This document shows, piece after piece, positions 905 to 4,543 of a stretch of 4,830 nt of DNA. This stretch comes from a virus (lineage: Duplodnaviria; Heunggongvirae; Uroviricota; Caudoviricetes): the IMG/VR virus record IMGVR_UViG_3300029107_000017, one strand, 5' to 3'. The notes beneath the pieces were generated by a model. It had not been told where the DNA came from, ran no database searches, and was given only the letters and a program-made list of their open reading frames with translations. The stretch's first letter is position 1. Every line of letters begins with the position of its first letter. The translations under genes were made by a program, and so were the position numbers.

Positions 905-965
905 GTAGAATTTAGAATAACCTAAGAATGATGGTCAAGCTTTTTGTGTAGAAAAACCTAAGTTT
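905..965 (-). promoter_or_regulatory. Putative leftward promoter for the ydfA-like operon, flanked by two operator-like palindromes
   Basis: Read on the - strand: TTGACC (rc of 933-938), 18-nt spacer, TAAATT (rc of 909-914). Palindromes TTTAG-aataac-CTAAG (911-926) and TGTAG-aaaaac-CTAAG (947-962) bracket the -35. No transcript data. Confidence 0.4.
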
Positions 966-1036: not shown

Positions 1037-1444
1037 TTATTTATTTGCGCTTCTTTTGCGAGCTTTGAGTAGTTCTTCAAAAAGTTTGTTGAAATTCTCA
1101 ACTCGAGCACGCATCTCTGACAACAGAGCCTTTTGCTCTGACTCAGGCAGTGCGTCGAACAGTTGAAGCAACTCTTTTTGATCTTCTGTCAGATTGACTG
1201 GCTGATTATCTGGGATCGGTTCGCCTGGTTGCTTATCTTCATCTCCAAAAAGAAGCCAGGTCGGCGAGCACTGAAGCGCCTGGCTCAGTGCGAATAATCT
1301 CTTCCCCGCTGGCTGTGTTTCATCTCTTTCCCATTGAGAAATTGTTACGTGAGCCACTTTGACCAGCTTACCTAATGCGGCCTGAGACAGTTTTAATTTT
1401 TTACGCCTGTATAAGAGGCGAGCACCGAAGGTTTCGTTTTTCAT
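1037..1444 (-). CDS. dicA: DicA-like prophage repressor (XRE-family HTH, 135 aa, no peptidase domain)
   Basis: ORF track 1037..1444 (-). Same length as E. coli DicA (135 aa) and shares long motifs with it as I recall the sequence: SQWER, LFALS..LQCSPTW.LFGDEDKQP, LPESEQ, EMRARV.NFNKLFEELLKAR. Divergent from a Cro-like gene. Confidence 0.85.
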   Translation of the reverse strand: MKNETFGARLLYRRKKLKLSQAALGKLVKVAHVTISQWERDETQPAGKRLFALSQALQCSPTWLLFGDEDKQPGEPIPDNQPVNLTEDQKELLQLFDALPESEQKALLSEMRARVENFNKLFEELLKARKRSANK

Positions 1445-1520
1445 ATTAGGTAATTCTAATTTCTCTTGACTTAGGTTTCTCTACAATCTAGTTTCCTTAG
1501 GAAAATCTAAGGAGTTCGAT
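1445..1520. promoter_or_regulatory. Divergent promoter/operator region between the repressor and the Cro-like gene
   Basis: Three YTTAG-N6-CTAAR sites: ATTAG-gtaatt-CTAAT (1445-1460), CTTAG-gtttct-CTACA (1470-1485), CTTAG-gaaaat-CTAAG (1496-1511), centres about 25 bp apart. Rightward elements: TTGACT (1466-1471), TACAAT (1482-1487), TAAGGAG (1508-1514). Leftward: TAGAAT (rc of 1453-1458) 8 nt before the repressor ATG. Confidence 0.55.
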
Positions 1521-1748
1521 ATGTTGAAAATTGATGCTATAGCGTTTTTTGGCAGCAAAACAAAGCTTGCCAATGTCGCAGGAGTTAGGCTGGCAAGCGT
1601 TGCAGCATGGGGGGAACTGGTTCCTGAAGGTCGCGCGATGCGCCTGCAAGAGGCATCCGGCGGGGAACTTCAGTACGACCCCAAAGTTTATGACGAATAT
1701 CGTAAGGCAAAGCGGGTGGGGCGGTTGAACAATGAAAATCACCCCTGA
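1521..1748 (+). CDS. dicC: Cro/DicC-like small HTH regulator (75 aa)
   Basis: ORF track 1521..1748 (+). TAAGGAG SD with a 6-nt spacer before the ATG. HTH-like segment GSKTKLANVAGVRLASVAAW. Divergent from the DicA-like repressor, as dicC is in Qin. Confidence 0.8.
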   Translation: MLKIDAIAFFGSKTKLANVAGVRLASVAAWGELVPEGRAMRLQEASGGELQYDPKVYDEYRKAKRVGRLNNENHP

Positions 1749-2283
1749 ACAGGTTTGTGAGGCTCTAGATGCCTGGGTATGCCGACCAGGAATGACACAG
1801 GAGCAGGCGACGATATTAATCACGGAAGCATTCTGGGCTCTGAAAGAACGCCCGAACATCGATGTTCAACGCGTCACGTTTAATGATGGCGAGGTTGATC
1901 AACGGGCGCTGGGCGTTAACCGGGTGAAGATATTCGAACGCTGGAAAGCTATCGACACCAGGGATAAGCGGGAAAAATTCACGGCGCTGATTCCGGCAAT
2001 TATGGAGGCTATCCGGATCAGCGATTTCAGGTTGTATTGTGAAATTACTGACGGAAAAAGCATTACGTACATGATCGCCGGGTTAAACAAAGAATATGGC
2101 GATGTGGTGGAGTCCGGGCTGCTTTTTGCGGATCCATCTGTTGTGGAACGTGAGACTGACGAGCTTATAGAAAAAGCTATTGCTTTCAAGCATGCGTATC
2201 GTCAGCAATATCAATATTACTTTGCAGATAAACAAATGTCTGCCAGGGGTTCGTATGAGTATCGATGCACTACGATGGGCTAA
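1732..2283 (+). CDS. YdaT-family protein (183 aa), CII-like regulator or putative toxin
   Basis: ORF track 1732..2283 (+). Overlaps the Cro-like gene's 3' end by 17 nt. MKI... N-terminus and the segment KREKFTALIPAIMEAI resemble Rac YdaT (QREKIQKLIPAILAIL) as I recall it. Confidence 0.7.
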   Translation: MKITPEQVCEALDAWVCRPGMTQEQATILITEAFWALKERPNIDVQRVTFNDGEVDQRALGVNRVKIFERWKAIDTRDKREKFTALIPAIMEAIRISDFRLYCEITDGKSITYMIAGLNKEYGDVVESGLLFADPSVVERETDELIEKAIAFKHAYRQQYQYYFADKQMSARGSYEYRCTTMG

Positions 2284-3295
2284 AAAGGTGAAAACCGGCA
2301 GTTCATCCAGTAAGTCAGTATTGACCTGGCTTGCTGATATGTGCGGTGCCGATTTGTGTGCATACCCGTCTGTATCTGCACTGGCAGAAGTAACGGAACT
2401 GAACAAAAAGACTGTGCAGGACAGCTTACGATACCTGATGGAGATTGGGTTAATTGTTGATACCGGTGAGAGAAAAGGCCGAACAAAGCAAATCGTGGTG
2501 TACCGACTTATCGGTGTAGAAGAAAGCGTTGCCGAGCCTGAATACACCCAAAAACGGGAGTCTTTAAAGGTGAGTAAAATTGGTGCTGTTAATAAAAACA
2601 GTACCGAAAATGGTTATGTTTCAGCACAAAACAGACCCAAAAACGGAACTCTTAGCTGCATGGAAAATAACCAAAGACACCCAAATTTTCCATCAAAGAC
2701 ACCCAAAAACGGATCACGGAACCCAAAGGAATCCAAAGATCTAAACCCCACACATAACGCACGCGAGAGTGCTCCGACCAGTGAGCAGGAAGTTTTGTCG
2801 TTACAGGCAGCACCCCTTGTATTCCTGGATGGCCTGAGCGAACCCATCGGAAAATTTCCGATGACCGATAGCTGGTATCCGTCACGGGATTTTCGACGAC
2901 GGGCTGCGTTGTGGGGGATGGCTTTGCCGGAGACAGAATTTACACCTGCTGAACTTGCCGCCTTCCGGGACTACTGGGCAGCGGAGGGGAAAGTGTTTAC
3001 GCAGATTCAGTGGGAGCAGAAATTCGCCCGTCACGTAAATCACGTCAGGGCGCAGGTTAAACCAGTCAGCAAGGGGGTAAACCATGCAGCAGCACCAGGT
3101 GGCACCGCATCACGGGCAGTTCAGGAAATTCGGGCAGCACGTGAGCAGTGGGAACGTGAAAACGGATTTATCAGCGACGGAAACAGCCTGGAAGCTGTGG
3201 GAACTCATGGGGGAGGTTTATTCGAACCGCTGGACCCAGAAGAACGGGGCCGCACCTTCGAAGCTCTGGATTGCACAGATTGGTGCGATGACTGA
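2255..3295 (+). CDS. Replication initiation protein: N-terminal HTH domain fused to a DnaT-like C-terminal domain (O-like)
   Basis: Track ORF 2180..3295 begins at a TTG. The in-frame ATG at 2255 has AGGGG 5 nt upstream and is the likely start (346 aa). N-terminus matches phage HTH initiator proteins. Residues around GKFPMTDSWYPSRDFRRRAALWGMALPE...YWAAEGKVFTQIQWEQKFAR closely parallel the E. coli DnaT C-terminal region as I recall it. Confidence 0.8.
   Translation: MSIDALRWAKKVKTGSSSSKSVLTWLADMCGADLCAYPSVSALAEVTELNKKTVQDSLRYLMEIGLIVDTGERKGRTKQIVVYRLIGVEESVAEPEYTQKRESLKVSKIGAVNKNSTENGYVSAQNRPKNGTLSCMENNQRHPNFPSKTPKNGSRNPKESKDLNPTHNARESAPTSEQEVLSLQAAPLVFLDGLSEPIGKFPMTDSWYPSRDFRRRAALWGMALPETEFTPAELAAFRDYWAAEGKVFTQIQWEQKFARHVNHVRAQVKPVSKGVNHAAAPGGTASRAVQEIRAAREQWERENGFISDGNSLEAVGTHGGGLFEPLDPEERGRTFEALDCTDWCDD
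2544..2730. repeat. Phased ACCCAAA(AACGG) direct repeats inside the initiator gene; candidate origin iterons
   Basis: ACCCAAA at 2546, 2635, 2679, 2701, 2721; three copies extend to (A/G)ACCCAAAAACGG(A/G). Spacings 89, 44, 22, 20 bp are near multiples of two helical turns. AT-rich stretch at about 2562-2632. The repeats also encode a Pro/Lys/Asn-rich interdomain linker. Confidence 0.4.
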
Positions 3296-3749
3296 GCAGC
3301 AAATCCGACAGGTCTGCCGCCAGTGCATGGACCGCTGCCGGGCGGGTGAAACATGGCCTCCGGACCTGGCTGAGTTTGTGGCGCTGATTTCTGAAAGCGG
3401 AGCCAATCCATTCGGTCTGACGGTGGATGCCGTGATGGAGGAGTACCGTCGCTGGCGCAACGAGTCCTGGCGATACGACGGGAGCGATAAATACCCGTGG
3501 TCTCAGCCTGTGCTGTATCACATTTGCCTCGAGATGCGTTCAAAGGGGATTGAGCGGCAGATGACCGAAGGGGAGTTAAAACGGCTTGCAGAACGGCAGC
3601 TGACGAAATGGGCAAAGCATGTTAGTAACGGCCTGAGTGTTCCGCCTATCCGGCGACAACTGGCAGCACCCAAACGTCCTGCGGGACCAACGCCAATTGA
3701 GTTGCTGAAACAGGAATATGAACGCCGGAAAGCGGCTGGGTTTGTCTGA
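3084..3749 (+). CDS. Lambda P-like replication protein (helicase loader), 221 aa
   Basis: ORF track 3084..3749 (+). ATG at 3084 preceded by AGGGGG (3072-3077) with a 6-nt spacer. Central and C-terminal segments (WPPDLAEFVAL; YPWSQPVLYHICLEMRSKGIERQMTEGELKRLAERQL) parallel lambda P (FLPSPGQFVAWC; YPWKSNAHYWLVTNLYQNMRANALTDAELRRKAADEL) as I recall it. Confidence 0.8.
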   Translation: MQQHQVAPHHGQFRKFGQHVSSGNVKTDLSATETAWKLWELMGEVYSNRWTQKNGAAPSKLWIAQIGAMTEQQIRQVCRQCMDRCRAGETWPPDLAEFVALISESGANPFGLTVDAVMEEYRRWRNESWRYDGSDKYPWSQPVLYHICLEMRSKGIERQMTEGELKRLAERQLTKWAKHVSNGLSVPPIRRQLAAPKRPAGPTPIELLKQEYERRKAAGFV

Positions 3750-3781: not shown

Positions 3782-4543
3782 ATGGAGACTGTTTTTGACG
3801 CACTGAAAGCGATGGGAAAAGCCACGTCGGTAGAGCTGGCTGCGCGACTTGATATCAGTCGTGAAGAAGTGCTGAACGAGCTGTGGGAACTGAAAAAGGC
3901 TGGCTTCGTTGATAAAAGCGTATACACCTGGCGTGTGGCTTATAACAACGTTCAGCAGGAACAGCCAGCGCCGGCAGAACTGTCGGAAGAAACCACCACG
4001 GCAACAGTCGCTAAAATTTCGGAGAGCGATTTAACTGCGACGATTGAACAACGTGGACCACAAACGGCGGATGAACTGGCTACGCTGTCCGGTACCACAT
4101 CCCGCAAAGTGGCTTCAACGCTGGCAATGGCAATCAGCAAAGGTCGTCTGATTCGTGTAAACCAGAACGGTAAATTTCGTTACTGCATACCGGGTGATAA
4201 TTTACCAGCCGAGCCGAAAGTTGAATCGGTAGCGGAAACCGATGGTAAAGCCTTTCCTCAGCCAGCAGGTGTTGCGTTACCAGTACAGGAAGTTGCAACA
4301 CAGGAATATATTAAAACAGAAACTGTGGCTGATATTGTGCAATCGTTGCCATCGTTTACTGAAACGCGAGCGGATGACCTGGTTTTACCATCGCTGCATA
4401 TGGCAAACCGCGAATTGCGTCGGGCGAAAAATCATGTCCAGAAGTGGGAGCGTGTCTGCGCCGCGCTGCGGGAACTGAACAAGCACCGGGATATTGTCCG
4501 ACAGATTGTCGATTCCTCCAGTCGTATTGTGTCGGAAAAGTGA
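3782..4543 (+). CDS. Prophage protein of unknown function with two winged-helix-like modules and a charged helical C-terminus (253 aa)
   Basis: ORF track 3782..4543 (+). GGGAGG (3770-3775) with a 6-nt spacer before the ATG. Residues about 4-51 and 84-135 share a G.T..EL....(S/T)R..V...L.....G pattern, suggesting an internal duplication. Confidence 0.8.

What the first reader, a model, noticed from the sequence alone, without database searches (positions are those of the whole stretch)
2544..2730. Phased iteron-like repeats within the initiator gene: candidate replication origin
Five ACCCAAA cores fall at spacings that are near multiples of 22 bp, next to an AT-rich stretch, inside the segment encoding the linker between the HTH and DnaT-like domains. 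Lambda's origin lies in the equivalent position inside gene O. If real, the origin and its initiator are co-encoded here.
Basis: partly seen in the sequence, partly recalled or inferred. Interest (0 to 1): 0.55.

Follow-up and report, generated by a model that had tools for sequence, protein, structure and literature searches.

The report
Replication origin inside a prophage initiator gene
The repeats are real DNA-level binding-site repeats (iterons) written into the disordered-linker coding part of a prophage replication initiator gene. They very probably form a lambda-style replication origin for an initiator family that is not lambda O and whose origin I could not find described.

Summary
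The window is the immunity/replication region of an E. coli lambdoid prophage (98.5% identical to PPompW phages). The N-terminal-domain-plus-repeat segment occurs in 908 of 5426 complete E. coli genomes.

The family consensus is AACAGTCCCAAAAACGGGACTGTT. The core at 2679 is a variant element. The core at 2721 belongs to a second short repeat (GAAYCYA).

The iterons encode residues 96-166, inside a predicted disordered linker (91-197) between an HTH_36 winged helix and a DnaT-like domain.

In 51 homologous loci from many genera:
- the core is 52-fold enriched in this linker;
- it occurs in all three codon phases;
- its synonymous sites are fixed (QKR = CAA AAA CGG in 15 of 16 cases).

Selection therefore acts on the DNA, not the peptide. 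Genes with the same C-terminal half but a different N-terminal domain lack these iterons. The 22-bp phasing is not conserved.

Verdict: a lambda-like intragenic origin, inferred rather than shown, in a non-O initiator family. New variant of a known kind; moderate interest.

The parts
2255..3295 (+). Initiator gene (346 aa): N-terminal HTH_36 winged helix, disordered linker, DnaT-like ssDNA-binding domain, acidic tail.
   Evidence: Pfam DnaT 61.5 bits (residues 201-267) and HTH_36 20.6 bits (residues 36-67). All 47 homologues scanned match HTH_36. AF2 model. Annotated as 'phage replication protein' in LC567818.
2255..2524 (+). Coding region of the winged-helix DNA-binding domain (residues 1-90), the presumed iteron reader.
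   Evidence: pLDDT 79-95 with helices 3-11, 17-29, 40-47, 51-64 and a beta hairpin 67-85. Foldseek matches ArsR/MarR-type winged helices. Weak sub-threshold matches to Phage_rep_O, RP-C and DnaD_N.
2541..2564 (+). Iteron 1, AATACACCCAAAAACGGGAGTCTT. Positionally conserved first iteron.
   Evidence: 29.4 bits against the homologue-only matrix. Arms 7 of 9 complementary. Aligned in all 9 Enterobacterales sequences.
2564..2603 (.). A+T-rich tract (72% A+T), the least stable 40-mer of the ORF. Candidate unwinding element in this allele.
   Evidence: Nearest-neighbour dG -45.9 kcal/mol against a window mean of -55.2. Least stable 40-mer within 2255-3295.
2597..2620 (+). Iteron 2, degenerate: AACAGTACCGAAAATGGTTATGTT.
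   Evidence: 20.8 bits. Arms 7 of 9. Detected as repeat D3.
2630..2653 (+). Iteron 3, AACAGACCCAAAAACGGAACTCTT.
   Evidence: 33.2 bits, the best in the window. Arms 6 of 9.
2660..2695 (.). Variant element: CAAAGACACCCAAATTTTCC flanked by a perfect 9-bp inverted repeat, ATGGAAAAT/ATTTTCCAT. Relatives carry an inverted core (ACCGTTTTTCCC) or CCCAATTTTGG at this position.
   Evidence: Inverted repeat I7. Alignment columns 175-200. Below the matrix threshold.
2696..2719 (+). Iteron 4, AAGACACCCAAAAACGGATCACGG. Positionally conserved terminal iteron.
   Evidence: 22.8 bits. CCCAAAAACGG plus CGGAA is invariant in 9 Enterobacterales sequences.
2718..2749 (+). Second repeat type (GAAYCYA units in 10-nt tandem) plus the conserved AAAGATCTAAA with a GATC at 2738-2741. 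It corresponds to the 12-mer tandem and A-rich tract that lies right of the iterons in relatives. Candidate unwinding element.
   Evidence: TRF period 10, 2.1 copies. GAAYCYA is 19-fold enriched at 330-560 nt from the start codon of homologues. In 26 of 34 loci the least stable 40-mer lies just right of the last iteron.
2735..2760 (.). Mosaic junction. To the left is the cassette specific to this N-terminal domain. To the right is the C-terminal module shared at about 90% identity with Rac-SA53 ydaU and phage pPE4.
   Evidence: Megablast matches begin at query positions 481-485. Protein alignment. DNA alignment diverges after column 260.
2855..3055 (+). DnaT-like ssDNA-binding domain (residues 201-267).
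   Evidence: Pfam PF17948. Foldseek match to E. coli DnaT 84-153 bound to dT10 (4ou6): 54% identity, rmsd 1.2, E = 8e-6.
3288..3749 (+). Lambda-P-family helicase-loader gene. Its ATG overlaps the last codons of the initiator gene.
   Evidence: PF06992 59.4 bits. Same length as Rac-SA53 ydaV. 12 of 40 downstream genes in homologous loci are P family.
1037..2283 (.). Upstream control region: DicA/CI-like repressor (1037-1444, - strand), Cro-like gene (1521-1748, +) and YdaT-like gene (1732-2283, +). Rightward transcription runs through the origin, as from lambda pR.
   Evidence: Pfam HTH_3, P22_Cro and YdaT_toxin. Annotations.

Best explanation
The segment 2541-2749 is the prophage's replication origin, written inside its own initiator gene.

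Proposed mechanism:
1. Four 24-bp iterons (core CC[A/G]AAAA[C/T]GG with partly dyad-symmetric arms) are bound by the N-terminal winged helix of the protein they help encode, probably as dimers. Together with the A-tracts this gives a bent nucleoprotein complex like the lambda O-some.
2. Melting occurs at the adjacent weak DNA. In this allele that is 2564-2603. In most relatives it is the GAAYCYA repeats and A-rich tract just right of the last iteron.
3. The DnaT-like domain holds the single strand, and/or the C-terminal part recruits the lambda-P-like loader (3288-3749), which delivers host DnaB.
4. Rightward transcription from the Cro-side promoter passes through the site.

Shown here:
- the repeats exist and are under DNA-level selection;
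- they sit in a disordered-linker coding segment;
- they co-vary with the N-terminal domain;
- they have lambda-like layout and gene neighbours.

Inferred: binding by the N-terminal domain, melting site, ssDNA capture, loader recruitment and origin activity.
For: Existence and excess in the window.

DNA-level rather than peptide-level selection:
- The window copies lie in codon phases 0, 2, 1, 2, 1.
- Across homologues, the 114 cores lie in phases 1, 2 and 0 in 73, 28 and 13 cases.
- When linker peptides are chosen by amino-acid sequence, their codons are almost fixed. KNG = AAA AAC GGN in 28 of 29 cases. QKR = CAA AAA CGG in 15 of 16. ENG = GAA AAC GGN in 24 of 25. Background expectations are 0.35, 0.05 and 0.31. 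Binomial p values are 3e-12, 1e-18 and 1e-11.

Positional conservation:
- CCAAAAACGG with at most one mismatch gives 116 hits within 240-520 nt of the start codon in 52 sources (the 51 homologous loci plus this window). There are 37 hits in the other 240 kb, a 52-fold enrichment.
- The matrix gives 151 hits inside and 6 outside.
- In a motif-free test, the linker is the most repeat-rich 281-nt window in 40 of 51 loci.

Independent phages not used to build the matrix: phiV10 has 6 hits, Vibrio phage Her 7, Bcep176 3 and AP22 1, all in the same gene position.

Specificity cassette:
- Rac-SA53 ydaU and pPE4 share the C-terminal half at about 90% identity, have unrelated N-terminal domains, and give no matrix hit.
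- Conversely, 47 of 47 proteins with this N-terminal domain carry varied C-termini. Only 6 have DnaT and 5 have Phg_2220_C.
- Distant subfamilies carry different but still dyad-symmetric repeats at the same place.

Lambda parallel:
- The annotated lambda iterons lie 348-432 nt into gene O, in three codon phases, have the form TCCCTCAAAACGAGGGA, and are followed by an A+T-rich tract.
- Published description of this layout: PMC7466680.

Weak DNA:
- The least stable 40-mer of the ORF falls at 230-520 nt in 46 of 48 loci, against about 16 expected.
- It lies just right of the last iteron in 26 of 34 loci.

Protein architecture. P-family loader downstream.
Against: - There is no experimental evidence of binding or origin activity for any member of this family. 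I found none in the literature I could search.
- In this window the right flank of the last iteron is only moderately A+T-rich (2720-2759, 83rd percentile of instability). The weakest DNA lies inside the array, unlike lambda.
- The window's iterons are poorer palindromes (7, 7, 6 and 4 of 9) than the family consensus. One internal iteron is deleted relative to Scandinavium and Enterobacter. This prophage allele could therefore be partly decayed.
- No helical phasing is conserved.
- The initiator is not a Phage_rep_O member (13.3 bits against a cut-off of 28.7), so the lambda analogy is by architecture and not by descent.
- The phylogenetic non-independence of the loci inflates the nominal p values.
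Confidence: 0.72

Rival explanations
1. The iterons are genuine binding sites for the initiator but are regulatory rather than the origin. They could serve autorepression, act as a transcription roadblock within the operon, or provide handcuffing/copy control. Initiation would then occur elsewhere, for example in an intergenic A+T-rich region.
For: The least stable DNA of the window is intergenic (1439-1478, 973-1012). The right flank of the array is not strongly A+T-rich in this allele. Iterons in plasmids also serve copy control (established knowledge of iteron plasmids, reviewed in PMC4980987, listed).
Against: The layout copies lambda's proven origin: position in the gene, A-tract cores, weak DNA next to the array in 26 of 34 relatives, and a P-type loader next door. 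The short GAAYCYA/12-mer tandem repeats next to the array look like an unwinding element rather than an operator. No second repeat cluster was seen elsewhere in the flanks held for each locus, up to 2.5 kb on either side.
Confidence: 0.12
2. The repeats are bound by another protein: a host factor, or another phage DNA-binder such as the YdaT-like or DUF1627 winged-helix proteins. They would then have a function unrelated to the initiator's N-terminal domain.
For: Binding has not been tested. The neighbouring genes also encode HTH proteins.
Against: The repeats co-occur with the HTH_36 N-terminal domain in 51 loci and four phages whose neighbouring genes differ. They are absent where only the N-terminal domain is replaced. 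Repeat sequence changes between subfamilies of the N-terminal domain.
Confidence: 0.07
3. The dyad-symmetric units act as single-stranded nucleic-acid structures. They could be hairpins in the mRNA that regulate translation, or hairpins in ssDNA acting as a primosome-assembly or ssi signal for the DnaT-like domain.
For: Segment 2535-2760 folds better than shuffles (DNA z = -2.9, RNA z = -4.3). The family consensus is a palindrome.
Against: The predicted folds pair arms of different iterons, not the two arms of one unit. Complementarity of an iteron's own arms (3.07 of 6) is no higher than with arms of other iterons in the same locus (3.19 of 6, p = 0.71). So there is no hairpin-type compensation, only a shared half-site. 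The best conserved part is the unpaired, asymmetric core. There is no Rfam match. The same repeats accompany C-termini without a DnaT-like domain.
Confidence: 0.05
4. The repeats are only a by-product of a repetitive, low-complexity peptide linker (PKNG/QKR/ENG motifs) generated by slippage or duplication, with no function at the DNA level.
For: The linker is predicted disordered and rich in K, N, P and Q. Copy number varies by indels.
Against: The same DNA word is read in three frames, giving different peptides. Synonymous positions are nearly invariant across genera with different codon usage. Flanking dyad symmetry has no peptide meaning.
Confidence: 0.03

Closest known systems
ori-lambda, inside gene O of phage lambda and Stx phages (4-6 iterons plus an A+T-rich tract; O-some; P-DnaB recruitment)
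   Same: - An array of about 20-bp, dyad-symmetric, A-tract-centred iterons lies about 300-450 nt into the initiator ORF, between the DNA-binding and the recruiting halves.
- The iterons are read in different codon phases.
- Weak DNA lies beside the array.
- A lambda-P-family loader gene comes next.
- The site sits in the rightward early operon behind a Cro-like gene.
- The N-terminal half plus iterons behaves as one specificity cassette.
   Different: - The initiator is not an O-family protein. BLASTP finds nothing and Phage_rep_O scores 13.3 bits against a 28.7-bit cut-off.
- The C-terminal half carries a DnaT-like ssDNA-binding domain.
- The iteron geometry differs: CCC and GGG are 9 nt apart, not 12.
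- A second short tandem repeat (GAAYCYA, or 12-mers) follows the array.
- In this allele the weakest DNA is inside the array.
Iteron plasmids (RK2 TrfA, pPS10 RepA, R6K pi): iterons plus a DUE of short tandem 13-mers, with Rep binding both dsDNA and ssDNA
   Same: - A winged-helix initiator binds directly repeated sites.
- Short tandem repeats beside the iterons look like a DUE.
- The initiator has a separate ssDNA-binding capacity, here the DnaT-like domain.
- This compares with the loop-back model paper listed (PMC10602881, abstract only read).
   Different: - Plasmid iterons lie outside the rep gene.
- No Rep_3 match, though there is a weak RP-C match.
- No DnaA boxes were sought or seen.
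- The helicase is delivered by a phage P-type loader.
repABC plasmids, whose origin lies inside repC
   Same: The origin is embedded in the initiator's coding sequence (title and abstract of PMC3155836). There is weak similarity of the N-terminal domain to RP-C (PF03428) in 9 of 15 family members.
   Different: The similarity is sub-threshold, the replicon type and partners differ, and no iteron array of this kind was compared.
E. coli DnaT (primosomal protein I), the source of the database name 'primosomal protein' for this gene
   Same: Residues 201-267 are 54% identical to the DnaT 84-153 ssDNA-binding domain and superpose at 1.2 A.
   Different: The N-terminal part is an HTH_36 winged helix followed by a 100-residue disordered linker that carries iterons. 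The protein is a phage origin-binding initiator by architecture, not a restart-primosome subunit.
'Eru' replication modules of Stx phages with HTH_36 proteins and YdaT homologues (Eru8/Eru11/Eru13; PMC8951638)
   Same: The gene order is the same: CI-like repressor, YdaT-like gene, HTH_36 protein. This module is common in EHEC genomes.
   Different: That paper classifies genes only. It mentions no iterons, and its four uses of 'origin' that the search showed are not about replication origins. I did not test identity of this window to a particular Eru type.

Membership tests
Lambda-type intragenic origin (ori-lambda kind) | An array of four or more directly repeated initiator sites of about 18-24 bp, each with internal dyad symmetry | tested here: met
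   Four matrix hits of 20.8-33.2 bits against a shuffle 95th percentile of 12.1. Arms are 7, 7, 6 and 4 of 9 complementary. The family consensus AACAGTCCCAAAAACGGGACTGTT is a perfect 9-bp-arm palindrome.
Lambda-type intragenic origin (ori-lambda kind) | The array lies inside the initiator ORF, between the DNA-binding N-terminal half and the C-terminal half | tested here: met
   The iterons encode residues 96-155, and residues 96-166 counting the short repeats to 2749. These fall inside the disordered segment 91-197, between the winged helix (1-90) and the DnaT-like domain (201-267). Lambda's iterons lie at 348-432 nt of gene O.
Lambda-type intragenic origin (ori-lambda kind) | An A+T-rich, easily melted tract directly flanks the array | tested here: inconclusive
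   In the family, the least stable 40-mer lies just right of the last iteron in 26 of 34 loci. In this window the weakest 40-mer (2564-2603) lies between iterons 1 and 2, and the right flank is only at the 83rd percentile of instability.
Lambda-type intragenic origin (ori-lambda kind) | The initiator belongs to the Phage_rep_O family (PF04492) | tested here: not met
   13.3 bits against a cut-off of 28.7. BLASTP against lambda O finds nothing. All members match HTH_36 instead.
Lambda-type intragenic origin (ori-lambda kind) | A lambda-P-family helicase loader is encoded immediately downstream | tested here: met
   PF06992 scores 59-61 bits against a cut-off of 26, and the start overlaps the end of the initiator gene.
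Lambda-type intragenic origin (ori-lambda kind) | The initiator binds the iterons and the fragment supports replication | not testable with these tools
   Needs EMSA or footprinting and an ori-cloning assay. No published data were found.
Iteron-plasmid origin (Rep_3/RepA type) | The iterons lie outside the rep gene, and the initiator has Rep_3-type tandem winged helices | tested here: not met
   The iterons are intragenic. There is no Rep_3 match, and only one winged helix is predicted.
Iteron-plasmid origin (Rep_3/RepA type) | An unwinding element made of short tandem repeats lies beside the iterons | tested here: inconclusive
   A 10-nt tandem at 2718-2738 has 2.1 copies. Relatives carry 12-mer tandems in 2-4 copies. 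Function is unknown.
DnaT (primosomal protein I) | A DnaT ssDNA-binding domain is present | tested here: met
   PF17948 scores 61.5 bits. 54% identity to 4ou6 at rmsd 1.2.
DnaT (primosomal protein I) | Full-length DnaT architecture (DnaT N-terminal domain, about 180 aa, no sequence-specific DNA-binding domain) | tested here: not met
   The protein has 346 aa with an HTH_36 winged helix and a 100-residue linker in front. Only 6 of 47 family members have the DnaT domain at all.

The most novel reading that the evidence does not exclude
The winged helix, its iterons and the short tandem repeats form a portable, self-contained origin-specificity cassette. Its binding sites are dual-coded inside an intrinsically disordered linker. 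The cassette has spread across Gamma- and Betaproteobacterial phages, including virulent ones such as AP22, and has been fused to interchangeable recruiting modules.

In the DnaT-fused version present here, initiation would be a hybrid of the lambda O-some and the restart primosome. The initiator's own DnaT-like domain would capture the melted strand and hand DnaB over through a P-type loader. This would make origin firing independent of host DnaA, PriA and DnaT.
Probability: 0.3. Interest if true: 0.65.

Novelty: new variant of a known kind. Interest (0 to 1): 0.5.

Why it matters
This replication module is very common. The N-terminal-domain-plus-iteron segment occurs at 95% identity or more in 908 of 5426 complete E. 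coli genomes, including O157:H7 and other EHEC strains. Yet its gene is annotated only as 'DnaT-like' or 'primosomal protein' and no origin is marked.

Three practical gains follow from knowing the origin and its cognate binding domain:
- It gives a testable handle on prophage induction and replication in EHEC, which governs copy number of neighbouring virulence cargo.
- It provides a ready-made family of orthogonal initiator/iteron pairs with different specificities for building replicons.
- It corrects a misleading functional name.

It is also an unusually clean natural example of dual coding. A protein-binding DNA array is maintained in three reading frames inside a disordered linker, and the synonymous-site signature can be used to find other hidden origins.

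Conceptually it is an extension of the lambda paradigm, not a new principle.

Tried and rejected
- A collection scan with the 15-sequence alignment A2 failed because no stretch was conserved enough. It was repeated with a closer six-sequence N-terminal alignment.
- Helical phasing: Rayleigh tests at 10, 10.5, 11, 11.5 and 12 bp on 80 spacings gave nothing convincing. Only the trivial 3-nt period was significant. The 22-bp phasing idea was dropped as a family property. In this window the refined spacings of 56, 33 and 66 are multiples of about 11, but this is not conserved.
- Hairpin or ssi-signal reading: tested by own-arm against cross-arm complementarity, with a negative result. The good fold z-scores are explained by arms of different iterons pairing.
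- Programmed -1 frameshift at the A-rich word CCCAAAAAC: considered and rejected without a test. The conserved CGG, the dyad-symmetric flanks and the occurrence in all three frames do not fit a slippery site.
- Homology to lambda O: BLASTP found nothing, and the Pfam match is sub-threshold. This gives an architectural analogy only.
- Rac oriJ literature: only two papers in the library mention it, and neither gives coordinates. The Rac-SA53 ydaU N-terminal domain is unrelated in any case.
- Rfam: no match at E up to 1.
- Promoter and terminator scans around the region were at chance level.
- First local-shuffle test: counts of 'any 7-mer at least 5 times' and 'any 12-mer at least 3 times' were probably inflated by homopolymer A runs (not checked). 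Only the motif-specific count (0 of 5000) was used.
Full report
CONTEXT
The window is the immunity/replication region of an E. coli lambdoid prophage. The initiator gene 2255-3295 is 98.5% identical to 'phage replication protein' genes of PPompW prophages, some deposited together with Stx2a phages.

The gene order is as follows (Pfam results):
- a DicA/CI-like repressor (1037-1444, minus strand);
- a P22-Cro-like gene (1521-1748);
- a YdaT-like gene (1732-2283);
- the initiator (2255-3295);
- a lambda-P-family gene;
- a DUF1627 gene (3782-4543).

The P-family gene most likely starts at the ATG at 3288, which overlaps the initiator's last codons. It is then the same length as ydaV of Rac-SA53. 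The N-terminal-domain-plus-repeat segment 2255-2760 is present at 95% identity or more in 908 of 5426 complete E. coli genomes, almost always on the chromosome.

THE OBSERVATION
ACCCAAA occurs at 2546, 2635, 2679, 2701 and 2721, exactly as reported, plus one unrelated copy at 3668. Shuffles of the whole window give 0.92 copies on average. None of 5000 dinucleotide-preserving shuffles of 2540-2745 alone reached five copies. Three copies extend to the exact 12-mer ACCCAAAAACGG and to 24-nt repeats.

The five cores lie in codon phases 0, 2, 1, 2, 1. The same DNA word is therefore translated as TQKR, PKNG, HPN, PKNG and NPK. That already argues for a DNA repeat rather than a peptide repeat.

The stated A+T-rich stretch is real. 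2564-2603 (72% A+T) is the least stable 40-mer of the ORF.

The 'linker' placement is also right. The Pfam domains are at residues 36-67 (HTH_36) and 201-267 (DnaT). AlphaFold2 gives a confident winged helix for residues 1-90, pLDDT below 50 for 91-197, and a folded domain from about residue 200.

RELATIVES
A search with the first 165 residues found homologues at 30-67% identity in Klebsiella, Edwardsiella, Yersinia, Ralstonia and many metagenomes. Their linkers show recurring PKNG, QKR, ENG and PFF peptides. A scan of one genome per species returned 51 loci from Enterobacterales, Acinetobacter, Methylobacter, Neptuniibacter, Sulfuricella, Desulfovibrio and others.

In the window plus these 51 loci (52 sources), the core CCAAAAACGG with at most one mismatch gives:
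- 116 hits within 240-520 nt of the initiator's start codon;
- 37 hits in the remaining 240 kb, a 52-fold enrichment.

The 114 plus-strand cores lie in all three codon phases: 73, 28 and 13.

The aligned sites give the consensus AACAGTCCCAAAAACGGGACTGTT. This has two 9-nt arms that are exact reverse complements around an A-tract.

A position weight matrix built from the homologues only, without the window, finds four sites in the window and nothing comparable elsewhere in it:
- 2541-2564 (29.4 bits);
- 2597-2620 (20.8 bits);
- 2630-2653 (33.2 bits);
- 2696-2719 (22.8 bits).

The 95th percentile of shuffle maxima is 12.1 bits.

Three are full iterons and a fourth, degenerate iteron was missed. 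The core at 2679 sits in a variant element, CCCAAATTTTCC. At that position relatives carry an inverted core (ACCGTTTTTCCC) or CCCAATTTTGG. The core at 2721 belongs to a different repeat, described below.

DNA-LEVEL SELECTION
To avoid circularity I selected linker tripeptides by amino-acid sequence and then looked at their codons in 50 dereplicated genes.

| Peptide | Codons | Observed | Expected from codon usage in the rest of the same genes | Nominal binomial p |
|---|---|---|---|---|
| KNG | AAA AAC GGN | 28 of 29 | 0.35 | 3e-12 |
| QKR | CAA AAA CGG | 15 of 16 | 0.05 | 1e-18 |
| ENG | GAA AAC GGN | 24 of 25 | 0.31 | 1e-11 |

Relatedness of the loci inflates these p values, but the effect is far too large to be explained that way. 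In a motif-free test, the linker is the most repeat-rich 281-nt window in 40 of 51 loci.

COUPLING TO THE N-TERMINAL DOMAIN
Rac-SA53 ydaU and the initiator of phage pPE4 match the window at about 90% nucleotide identity only from window position 2735 onward. Their N-terminal domains are unrelated to the one here. The matrix finds no site in either locus, nor in lambda. pPE4 has its own, different repeats at the equivalent place.

Conversely, all 47 proteins with this N-terminal domain match HTH_36, but only 6 carry a DnaT domain and 5 carry Phg_2220_C. Distant subfamilies keep an array at the same position with changed, still dyad-symmetric units. Examples are GTCCCAACAATGGGAC in Acinetobacter, AGTGCCAAAAGTGGCACT in L046, and an unrelated 17-mer repeated eight times in L048.

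Four isolated phages that were not used to build the matrix show the same arrangement in the same gene position:
- phiV10: 6 sites, then three 12-mers, then a lambda-P-family gene;
- Vibrio phage Her: 7 sites at a 24-bp period;
- Burkholderia phage Bcep176: 3 strong sites out of about 8 copies;
- Acinetobacter phage AP22: 1 strong site.

The domain and its repeats therefore behave as one specificity cassette, as the N-terminal half of lambda O and its iterons do.

SECOND ELEMENT AND WEAK DNA
Right of the terminal iteron, relatives carry 2-4 tandem units of GAAYCTAYCAxx. The period is usually 12, and units are read in different frames. An A-rich run often follows. GAAYCYA is 19-fold enriched at 330-560 nt from the start codon.

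The window has the short version GGAACCCAAA GGAATCCAAA GATCTAAAC at 2718-2746 (TRF period 10). It includes the block AAAGATCTAAA, which is conserved in Enterobacterales.

The least stable 40-mer of the ORF lies at 230-520 nt in 46 of 48 loci, against about 16 expected. Among 34 loci with two or more iterons it lies just right of the last iteron in 26, inside the array in 5 (this window included) and elsewhere in 3.

COMPARISON WITH LAMBDA
The annotated lambda iterons lie 348-432 nt into gene O, in codon phases 0, 2, 2 and 1. They are spaced 20, 24 and 23 bp, have the form TCCCTCAAAACGAGGGA, and are followed by the A+T-rich tract. This is the published layout of lambdoid origins (PMC7466680). 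The layout matches the one found here.

The proteins are not demonstrably homologous. BLASTP finds nothing and Phage_rep_O scores 13.3 bits against a cut-off of 28.7.

The C-terminal domain is a close relative of the E. coli DnaT ssDNA-binding domain (54% identity to 4ou6, rmsd 1.2). That suggests a direct role on the melted strand. Because most family members lack this domain, it cannot be what reads the repeats.

ALTERNATIVES
- A pure peptide-repeat explanation is excluded by the frame and codon data.
- A hairpin (RNA or ssDNA) reading was tested. The segment folds better than shuffles (z = -2.9 for DNA and -4.3 for RNA). However, the folds pair arms of different iterons. An iteron's own arms are no more complementary to each other than to arms of other iterons in the same locus (3.07 against 3.19 of 6, p = 0.71). 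This is what a shared half-site for a dimeric duplex binder predicts.
- No Rfam family matches.
- The repeats could be initiator-binding sites with a purely regulatory role, or could be bound by another protein. Neither can be excluded without experiments, and I give them 0.12 and 0.07.

LITERATURE
Two papers on non-lambdoid Stx-phage replication modules name HTH_36 and YdaT genes at this position (Eru8, Eru11, Eru13) but do not mention iterons or origins. Searches for HTH_36, DnaT-like initiators, phiV10/epsilon15 and oriJ found no description of this origin. The library lacks most subscription journals, so an older description, for example in phage genome papers, cannot be ruled out.

VERDICT
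The repeats are real, functional at the DNA level, and best explained as the iteron array of a lambda-style intragenic origin belonging to an HTH_36-type initiator. In this window the initiator is fused to a DnaT-like domain and paired with a P-type loader.
- Shown: existence, DNA-level constraint, conservation of position, coupling to the N-terminal domain, protein architecture and gene context.
- Inferred: binding, melting site, loader recruitment and origin activity.

Confidence is 0.72. This is a new variant of a known kind. Interest is moderate (0.5), raised by the module's abundance in E. coli and by the clean dual-coding signature, and limited because the principle is textbook lambda biology.

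Noticed in passing
window 2845-2863: A perfect 9-bp-arm palindrome, CATCGGAAA-A-TTTCCGATG, lies about 100 bp right of the iteron array, inside the shared C-terminal module (peptide EPIGKFPMTD). Rac-SA53 has it with one mismatch. From memory (not checked here), lambda's origin also has an inverted repeat right of its A+T-rich tract. This could be chance: roughly 0.1 such palindromes are expected in a window of this size.
   Followed up: partly
window 2738-2741, and L005, L007, L011, L013 at the aligned position: A GATC (Dam site) sits in the block AAAGATCTAAA just right of the terminal iteron. The block is conserved in most of the nine aligned Enterobacterales sequences. GATCT also begins the oriC 13-mers. 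A possible SeqA/Dam link was not examined.
   Followed up: no
window 921-962 and 1470-1501: CCTAAG occurs four times, twice on each side of the repressor gene and pointing inward (8 of 200 shuffles reach four). A 23-nt repeat with 2.2 copies lies at 936-986. These are candidate operators of the DicA/Cro-like switch.
   Followed up: partly
window 1037-1444 (- strand): The CI-like repressor has only 135 aa, with an HTH_3 domain and no S24 peptidase domain. Induction cannot work by RecA-stimulated self-cleavage. This resembles the atypical 'Clade VIII' CI proteins mentioned in PMC8951638.
   Followed up: no
window 2255-2283 and 3288-3295: Gene overlaps suggest translational coupling along the operon. 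The YdaT-like ORF ends 29 nt inside the initiator ORF. The P-like ATG (3288) overlaps the initiator's last codons. The database annotation of the P-like gene in LC567818 starts later (equivalent to 3327) and probably truncates it.
   Followed up: partly
L003 (PP818812.1, 'Actinobacillus phage vB_Apl-pPE4'): A phage recorded from Actinobacillus pleuropneumoniae is 91% identical at the DNA level to E. coli prophage replication genes and has DicA/YdaT-type neighbours. Its host assignment looks doubtful. Its initiator has a third, unrelated N-terminal domain with its own repeats (GATAAGGCNNNCNCTTTG three times, GCCTAAGGATAA twice).
   Followed up: partly
L048:2780-2930 (Methylococcaceae MAG); also L036, L039, L046: Distant members of the family keep an array in the same linker position but with entirely different units. 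L048 has eight copies of a 17-18-mer, CATACCGGTAGGGAAAAG. This is good material for reading a recognition code.
   Followed up: partly
window 2672-2695 compared with L055:579-596: The penultimate element of the array has an A/T-swapped centre (CCCAAATTTTCC here, CCCAATTTTGG in Edwardsiella and Serratia). Lambda's third iteron likewise has CAAATTGG instead of CAAAACGA. This may be coincidence, or it may be a shared functional asymmetry within the array.
   Followed up: no
window 2535-2760: The segment folds markedly better than shuffles as RNA (z = -4.3). I attribute this to complementary arms of different iterons. An effect on translation of the initiator mRNA was not excluded.
   Followed up: partly
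L023, L025-L027 (Acinetobacter and Pseudomonadaceae loci), downstream of the initiator gene: In four loci the gene after the initiator is a GmrSD_N/HNH nuclease-like protein of about 540-560 aa rather than a helicase loader. This may be a defence or anti-defence insertion in the replication module.
   Followed up: no
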